Origin: the human T2T-CHM13v2.0 reference genome, Homo sapiens
Length of the DNA: 64,000 nt
Assembly: GCA_009914755.4 (NCBI GenBank)
Contig: CP068257.2
Coordinates: forward strand, 24,256,001 to 24,320,000
Direction of reading: 5' to 3'
The stretch's first letter is position 1. Each line of letters opens with the position of its first letter. The notes beneath the pieces were generated by a model. The model saw nothing but the letters and a program-made list of their open reading frames with translations, ran no database searches and was not told the DNA's origin. Below are positions 56,683 to 57,844 of the stretch, one piece after another. The position numbers and the translations under genes are program-made.

Positions 56683-56782
56683 CAACTTCATCCTGAATCT
56701 CCTCGGCCACTGCAGGCACGTTGTAGAGCAGGGAGAGAGACTGATTCATGCGCTCATAAATCACACGGAGGTGTGTCATAAC
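56683..56782 (-). CDS. internal coding exon (100 nt, phase 0 start, phase 1 end); gene unidentified
   Basis: minus strand ..tcatcctttgatgcag|GTTATGACACACCTCCGTGTGATTTATGAGCGCATGAATCAGTCTCTCTCCCTGCTCTACAACGTGCCTGCAGTGGCCGAGGAGATTCAGGATGAAGTTG|gtaagtaag gives [33 protein letters not shown]. It is the only open frame, with stop codons immediately outside both splice sites. Confidence 0.7.
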
Positions 56783-56852
56783 CTGCATCAAAGGATGACA
56801 ACTCCAGGTCAACAATGTCTGGGGGTAGGAATGGTTCTTTTTCTTTCTTTTT

Positions 56853-56900
56853 TTCTTTTTTTTTTGAGACGGAGTCTCGCTCTGTCGCCCAGGTTATTTT
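56853..56900 (-). mobile_element. mini-Alu: only the last ~33 bp of an Alu plus an A-rich tail, sense to the minus-strand gene, about 70 nt upstream of the 56782 acceptor
   Basis: tttctttctttttttcttttttttttGAGACGGAGTCTCGCTCTGTCGCCCAGG, then unrelated sequence. Confidence 0.8.
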
Positions 56901-57715
56901 TCTTACCAAGCACTGCAGGTAGATACAAACTTCCAAAAGAAAACTGACAAACACTGCTACTGTTAAAAGGTTGAACTGAAAGGGCAACTTTATTTTTCTT
57001 GTTCTCCTATTTCTGTTCTCTAACTTTTGAGCTCAGGTTTAAGACTTATCTTAAAACTTACCATTATCTTGTATGCTTATAACAGCCAATTAAAAAGGCT
57101 ACCTCTGCCACCTCTGATTCCTAATACTGAGGCTCTCTAAACAGACCCTCATGCCCTAAATACATTTCTTTGCAAATTTCCCCCTAGAAAACAACGTATT
57201 TCAATTTGATTGGCTATTTCATGCTATATATATTTAACTCTTTCATTCAAGAAAATGTAAAATTTCACATTTCCTAAGGTAGATCCCAGTTTTCAGCCTT
57301 TGGGAACCGGGGAGTATAAAATACATTATTACTGGGCTTCATTTAGGCTCACATGAAATCTCAACATTCCAGTAGGTTTATGATTGCCTGCCATACTTCA
57401 GTTGAACCAGTTTTCAAGATTTTAGTTTATACAACTTTTGTTTTTCTCATTTTAGTCATTGGTTTTAATCAGTTCCTTAGCAATCAGTTAGCAGTAGACT
57501 AAGATTTTTACATTTGTTATTTTCATAACTCAGAAAATGCCAAACCACATATTGCTCTAAGACAAGCTTTTAGAATTTACCAGAAGTTAAAGAGCTCTTG
57601 CCATAGGGAAAACACCTATAGGTGCTCGGAGAATGCGTGGGATCCTGTCACCAACCCAAGAAGCAAGAATCCTGGATTGTCAAAGCTGCAGAAGATGATT
57701 ATACCCCACGCTTAC

Positions 57716-57844
57716 CTGGGACCGGATCTGAGCGGCTTTCTTGGGATCCACCATGCGCACATGCTCGAAATGCTTTAGGGTGTGCTGTCTGTCCTTCTGT
57801 TCTGCGCGGACATACTTCTTTAGCATATTGAACACGTGACGAGG
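57716..57844 (-). CDS. internal coding exon (129 nt, phase 0 at both ends), relatively CpG-rich; gene unidentified
   Basis: minus strand ttttcattttcctcccacag|CCTCGTCACGTGTTCAATATGCTAAAGAAGTATGTCCGCGCAGAACAGAAGGACAGACAGCACACCCTAAAGCATTTCGAGCATGTGCGCATGGTGGATCCCAAGAAAGCCGCTCAGATCCGGTCCCAG|gtaagcgtgg gives [43 protein letters not shown]. It has a strong polypyrimidine tract and a consensus donor, and sits within the 57680-57886 minus-strand ORF of the track. Confidence 0.75.

What the first reader, a model, noticed from the sequence alone, without database searches (positions are those of the whole stretch)
56683..57844. Two minus-strand internal coding exons with textbook splice sites, in phase with each other; gene not recognised
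Exon 57716-57844 encodes [43 protein letters not shown]. Its acceptor has a 20-nt polypyrimidine tract ending in CAG, and its donor is CAG|GTAAGC. Exon 56683-56782 encodes [33 protein letters not shown], with acceptor TGATGCAG| and donor G|GTAAGTAAG. In both cases it is the only open frame, and stops occur immediately outside the splice sites. The first exon ends in phase 0 and the second starts in phase 0, so they can be joined as ..[14 protein letters not shown]... The first exon is unusually CpG-rich (CACGTG, GCGCGG, CCGG..) in an otherwise CpG-depleted region, which suggests strong constraint. The TLKHFE..KKAAQ stretch loosely recalls the AF4/FMR2-family C-terminal homology region, but I cannot support an assignment.
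Basis: seen in the sequence. Interest (0 to 1): 0.55.

Follow-up and report, generated by a model that had tools for sequence, protein, structure and literature searches.

The report
Exons 12-13 of the APP gene
The two exons are real, but they are exons 12 and 13 of the amyloid-beta precursor protein gene (APP), the thoroughly studied Alzheimer's disease gene, so nothing here is new.

Summary
Minus-strand intervals 57844-57716 (129 nt) and 56782-56683 (100 nt) are coding exons with AG/GT borders, and they join in phase 0. The joined 76-aa peptide is 76/76 identical to human amyloid-beta precursor protein residues 487-562 (APP770 numbering; PDB phmmer E = 4e-46), and it hits Pfam APP_E2 at 79.5 bits against a cut-off of 22.2. 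The window also holds the next two APP exons on the same strand, 14044-13823 (222 nt) and 7156-7103 (54 nt). Splicing all four gives 168 aa that are 168/168 identical to APP 487-654. The 54-nt exon fits the alternatively spliced exon 15, so the finding is exons 12 and 13. They encode the C-terminal helices of the extracellular E2 domain, including His507 and His511, two of the four ligands of its M1 copper/zinc site. The AF4/FMR2 idea is not supported. Two side claims are inaccurate: other frames are also open, and stops mostly do not lie immediately outside the splice sites. The CpG enrichment is real (observed/expected 0.90 against 0.29 for the window). This is an already known gene and of low interest.

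The parts
57716..57844 (-). APP exon 12 (129 nt, phase 0 to phase 0). It encodes APP770 residues 487-529, [43 protein letters not shown]. This is part of the E2 domain and contains His507 and His511 of the M1 metal site.
   Evidence: Translation; splice sites; 100% identity to APP chains; Pfam APP_E2; His507/His511 role from PMC5281630.
56783..57715 (-). Intron 12 (933 nt, GT..AG). It contains a 35-nt fragment of an Alu 3' end plus an A-rich tail at about 56859-56893.
56683..56782 (-). APP exon 13 (100 nt, starts in phase 0 and ends after the first base of a codon). It encodes residues 530-562, [33 protein letters not shown], plus the G of Asp563. This is the C-terminal end of the E2 domain.
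   Evidence: Translation; splice sites; identity.
14045..56682 (-). Intron 13 (42,638 nt). It is rich in repeats: many Alus, a near full-length LINE-1 on the opposite strand, and a U6 retro-pseudogene.
13823..14044 (-). APP exon 14 (222 nt). It encodes residues 563-636 ([13 protein letters not shown]...PANTENE), the juxtamembrane linker after E2. The acceptor is ttggtttag|AT and the donor is CGAAG|gtaaga.
   Evidence: tblastn; boundaries and spliced translation; 168/168 identity to APP.
7103..7156 (-). APP exon 15 (54 nt, 18 codons). It encodes residues 637-654 (VEPVDARPAADRGLTTRP) plus the first base of the next codon. This is the exon skipped in the leukocyte L-APP isoforms. The acceptor is gtgcccag|TT and the donor is ACCAG|gtatca.
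   Evidence: The 18-residue size fits the 770 to 752 isoform difference described in PMC4991393.

Best explanation
The two intervals are exons 12 and 13 of the amyloid-beta precursor protein gene (APP), from human or a very close primate, transcribed from the window's minus strand. The spliceosome removes the 933-nt intron 12 and joins 57716 to 56782, giving ...[14 protein letters not shown].... Together the exons encode residues 487-562 of APP770. These residues form the C-terminal helices of the extracellular E2 domain, a helical coiled-coil-like rod. This segment supplies His507 and His511, two of the four histidines of the M1 copper/zinc site. Metal binding at M1 bends and rigidifies E2, and the same histidines contact heparin in the paralogue APLP1. 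The window covers APP exons 12 to 15. The A-beta-coding exons 16 and 17 lie beyond the low-coordinate end of the window. Shown here: the exon boundaries, the phase, the protein identity and the domain family. Taken from the literature: the metal and heparin roles. Inferred: that the CpG retention reflects coding constraint.
For: - The translations are as stated, with canonical AG/GT borders.
- The joined peptide is 76/76 identical to PDB APP chains, for example 1tkn_A (E = 4.4e-46) and 8kew_F (770 aa, residues 487-562). These chains run straight across the proposed junction, as the spliced mRNA would require.
- Pfam APP_E2 scores 79.5 bits against a cut-off of 22.2, matching profile positions 130-190 of 190.
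- The paralogues score clearly lower: APLP2 100 bits and APLP1 about 77 bits, against 150-156 bits for APP. The gene is therefore APP itself.
- Two further exons lie downstream on the same strand in the right order. The four-exon spliced product is 168/168 identical to APP 487-654.
- The M1 site is His388, His457, His507 and His511 in APP770 numbering (PMC5281630). Positions 21 and 25 of the exon-12 peptide are those last two histidines.
- APP has 18 exons encoding 770 aa, and exon 15 is alternatively spliced (PMC4991393).
- About 30 Alu copies in the window indicate a primate genome.
Against: Nothing contradicts it. Four limits apply.

- No RNA-seq or genomic reference could be queried, so the species cannot be pinned below 'primate' from DNA.
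- The exon numbers 12 and 13 are counted back from the 54-nt exon. Equating that exon with exon 15 rests on the 18-residue isoform difference in the review read and on my own recollection of the published APP exon sizes. It was not checked against an annotated genome record.
It served only to locate exons, and the located exons were then verified independently against PDB sequences.
- The tblastn search used the canonical APP770 sequence and matched only residues 485-655. It would not find non-coding exons or isoform-specific coding exons absent from APP770.
Confidence: 0.98

Rival explanations
1. The exons belong to a paralogue (APLP2 or APLP1) or to a duplicated, non-functional copy of APP rather than the functional APP gene.
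For: APLP2 and APLP1 share the E2 domain and are hit significantly (2.8e-28 and about 5e-21).
Against: Identity to APP is 168/168 over four exons, while the paralogues score far lower. All eight splice sites are canonical and the reading frame is intact. The intron-containing structure excludes a processed pseudogene. To my knowledge no segmental duplicate of APP exists in the human reference.
Confidence: 0.015
2. The exons belong to an AF4/FMR2-family gene, as the first reader tentatively suggested.
Against: Pfam returns APP_E2 as the only hit above its curated cut-off. The one other match, Ints3_N, scores 15.5 bits against a cut-off of 25. No AF4/FMR2 family appears at E <= 0.01. The peptide is identical to APP.
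Confidence: 0.001
3. The open frames and splice-like motifs are chance features of non-coding DNA.
For: Short stop-free stretches are common, and other frames of both intervals are also open.
Against: E-values of 1e-46 and 1e-109 to a known protein, with four collinear exons in correct phase.
Confidence: 0.001

Closest known systems
Human APP (amyloid-beta precursor protein, UniProt P05067 by my recollection), exons 12-13, E2 domain
   Same: Every residue matches: 76/76 for the finding and 168/168 for the four exons in the window. The domain family, the collinear order of the four exons and the 18-codon size of exon 15 also match.
   Different: No difference was detected at the protein level. 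DNA-level identity to the reference could not be tested with the available collections.
APLP2 and APLP1 (APP-like proteins), E2 domains (PDB 5tpt, 3pmr, 3q7g, 4rda)
   Same: Same Pfam APP_E2 fold and a homologous region. In the APLP1-heparin structure the four histidines equivalent to the M1 site contact the sugar.
   Different: Much lower similarity: 100 and about 77 bits, against 150-156 for APP. These are paralogues, not this gene.
C. elegans APL-1 E2 domain (PDB 3k66, 'Beta-amyloid-like protein')
   Same: Detectably homologous over residues 4-69 of the peptide (E = 8e-11). This shows that the segment is conserved across animals.
   Different: A distant orthologue or family member with low identity.

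Membership tests
APP family, E2 domain (Pfam PF12925 APP_E2) | Sequence match to the APP_E2 profile above Pfam's gathering score | tested here: met
   79.5 bits against a cut-off of 22.2, E = 3.4e-22. Peptide residues 2-62 match profile positions 130-190 of 190.
APP itself (not APLP1 or APLP2) | Identity to APP and clearly better than to the paralogues | tested here: met
   76/76 and 168/168 identical to APP chains. APP scores 150-156 bits, APLP2 100 and APLP1 about 77.
APP itself (not APLP1 or APLP2) | Collinear exon-intron structure with neighbouring APP exons, correct phases and canonical splice sites | tested here: met
   Exons of 129, 100, 222 and 54 nt lie in order on the minus strand, all with AG/GT borders. 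The spliced frame is uninterrupted. The 54-nt exon is 18 codons, matching the 770/752 isoform difference.
APP itself (not APLP1 or APLP2) | Presence of the A-beta region (exons 16-17) in the same gene | not testable with these tools
   tblastn with full-length APP finds only residues 485-655 in the window. Exons 16-17 would lie beyond coordinate 1.
APP E2 M1 metal site | Histidines at APP770 positions 507 and 511 | tested here: met
   The exon-12 peptide has His at positions 21 and 25, which are residues 507 and 511 when P1 is residue 487. The ligand list comes from PMC5281630. The other two ligands, His388 and His457, are encoded upstream of the window.
AF4/FMR2 family C-terminal homology domain | Profile match to an AF4/FMR2 family model | tested here: not met
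   No such family appears among the Pfam hits at E <= 0.01.

The most novel reading that the evidence does not exclude
The most novel reading still open is that the window is not the reference human APP locus. It could be an APP allele or orthologue from another primate, with an insertion polymorphism in intron 13 such as the near full-length LINE-1 with an intact ORF1. That would be a population or comparative-genomics detail. It would not change what the two exons are.
Probability: 0.05. Interest if true: 0.1.

Novelty: already known. Interest (0 to 1): 0.03.

Why it matters
It matters only as a check on the scan. A reader working from raw sequence correctly delimited two real exons to the base and got their phase right, but could not name a very well-known gene. 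APP is central to Alzheimer's disease. To my knowledge, though, the disease-causing mutations cluster in exons 16-17, which encode A-beta, and not in exons 12-13. No new biology follows from this finding.

Tried and rejected
- AF4/FMR2 homology was rejected. Pfam gives only APP_E2 above its cut-off, plus Ints3_N at 15.5 bits against a cut-off of 25.
- 'Only open frame' as evidence for coding was rejected. Minus frame 2 of exon A and plus frame 1 of exon B are also stop-free.
- My first guess for the exon 15 boundaries (7155-7102) was one base off and broke the frame. It was corrected to 7156-7103.
- I looked for APP exon 11 or earlier and exon 16 or later in the window. None are present. The other tblastn hits had E > 1, and the two that carry a Cys.PSYSGG motif fall within Alu elements mapped.
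- A 185-aa minus-strand ORF at 7806-8363 in intron 14 has no Pfam hit and is treated as chance.

Full report
**Observation**

- Exon A, 57844-57716, is 129 nt. It is preceded by a pyrimidine-rich tract ending in cacag and followed by gtaagc.
- Exon B, 56782-56683, is 100 nt. It is preceded by tgatgcag and followed by gtaagtaag.
- Exon A is 43 whole codons, so the A/B junction is phase 0.
- Exon B is 33 codons plus one G.

**Identity**

The joined 76-aa peptide matches Pfam APP_E2 (PF12925) at 79.5 bits against a gathering score of 22.2, covering the C-terminal third of the profile. Against all PDB chain sequences it is 76/76 identical to human amyloid-beta precursor protein. Examples are 1tkn_A (E = 4.4e-46) and residues 487-562 of the 770-residue chain 8kew_F. 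The paralogues APLP2 (100 bits) and APLP1 (about 77 bits) and the nematode homologue (E = 8e-11) score much lower. The gene is therefore APP itself, and the segment is conserved across animals. These chains run straight across ...IRSQ/VMTH..., as the proposed splice junction requires.

**Context**

A tblastn of full-length APP770 against the window found two more collinear minus-strand exons and nothing else credible. After I corrected a one-base error in my first guess, the exons are 14044-13823 (222 nt) and 7156-7103 (54 nt). Both have AG/GT borders.

The four exons splice into 505 nt with one uninterrupted frame. Its 168-aa product is 168/168 identical to APP 487-654, with 5buo_A at E = 4.6e-109 and 8kew_F at E = 2.4e-108. 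A review states that 18 exons encode APP770 and that exon 15 is alternatively spliced, giving L-APP isoforms such as 752 (PMC4991393). The 18-codon exon at 7156-7103 fits that 18-residue difference. The finding is therefore exons 12 and 13. The published exon sizes I recall (129 and 100 nt) agree, but that is memory rather than a test.

The introns are 933 nt (intron 12), 42,638 nt (intron 13) and 6,666 nt (intron 14).

**Function**

Exons 12-13 encode the C-terminal helices of the E2 domain of the APP ectodomain. The M1 copper/zinc site of E2 uses His388, His457, His507 and His511 in APP770 numbering. Metal binding there bends the helical rod by about 12 degrees and stabilises it. In the APLP1 E2-heparin structure the equivalent four histidines contact the sugar instead (PMC5281630). 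With P1 of exon 12 at residue 487, positions 21 and 25 (QHTLKHFEH) are His507 and His511. No AF4/FMR2 family is hit.

- CpG enrichment is real. Exon A has 8 CpG, observed/expected 0.90. The whole window is at 0.29 and the adjacent introns at 0.26-0.31. Only 1.4% of 129-nt windows have as many CpG.
- The four exons all sit at 0.62-0.90. The other CpG-dense spots listed coincide with exons 14 and 15, Alu elements and the presumed LINE-1 5' end.
- Read directly from the sequence, four of the eight CpGs in exon A are in CGN arginine codons and four span a codon boundary. Coding constraint is a reasonable inference, but it was not tested.
- 'Only open frame' is wrong for both exons, and 'stops immediately outside' holds only downstream of exon B.

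**Surroundings**

The window is typical primate intronic DNA.

- It contains about 30 Alu copies.
- A near full-length LINE-1 lies on the plus strand. Its 338-aa ORF1 is intact, with the three L1 ORF1 Pfam domains. ORF2 is split into an endonuclease part and a reverse-transcriptase part.
- A U6 snRNA-like sequence lies at 45140-45245 on the minus strand. It scores 59 bits in Rfam, is about 82% identical to my recalled U6 sequence, directly follows an Alu poly-A tail and lacks a terminal T run. It is most likely a retro-pseudogene.

**Verdict**

The 'unrecognised gene' is APP. This is already known and carries no novelty.

Noticed in passing
window 13823-14044 (-) and 7103-7156 (-): Two further APP coding exons, 14 and 15, lie in the same window. 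Exon 15 is the 54-nt exon that is alternatively skipped in the L-APP isoforms.
   Followed up: yes
window about 20400-26600 (+), ORFs 21356-22372, 22436-23518 and 23717-26260: A near full-length LINE-1 lies in APP intron 13, antisense to APP. Its 338-aa ORF1 is intact (Transposase_22, Tnp_22_dsRBD and Tnp_22_trimer domains). ORF2 is split into an endonuclease ORF (360 aa) and a reverse-transcriptase ORF (847 aa). The CpG-dense stretch at 20411-20811 is probably its 5' UTR.
   Followed up: partly
window 45140-45245 (-): A U6 spliceosomal RNA match (Rfam RF00026, 59.3 bits against a gathering score of 44). It is about 82% identical to my recalled canonical U6, sits directly after an Alu poly-A tail, shows no obvious upstream promoter and has no terminal T run. 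It is most likely a U6 retro-pseudogene in intron 13.
   Followed up: partly
This marks the DNA as primate. The youngest-looking copy is at 16647-16933. A 35-nt Alu 3' fragment sits in intron 12 at 56859-56893.
   Followed up: partly
window 7806-8363 (-): A 185-aa ATG-initiated ORF in intron 14 has no Pfam match. It is probably a chance ORF.
   Followed up: partly
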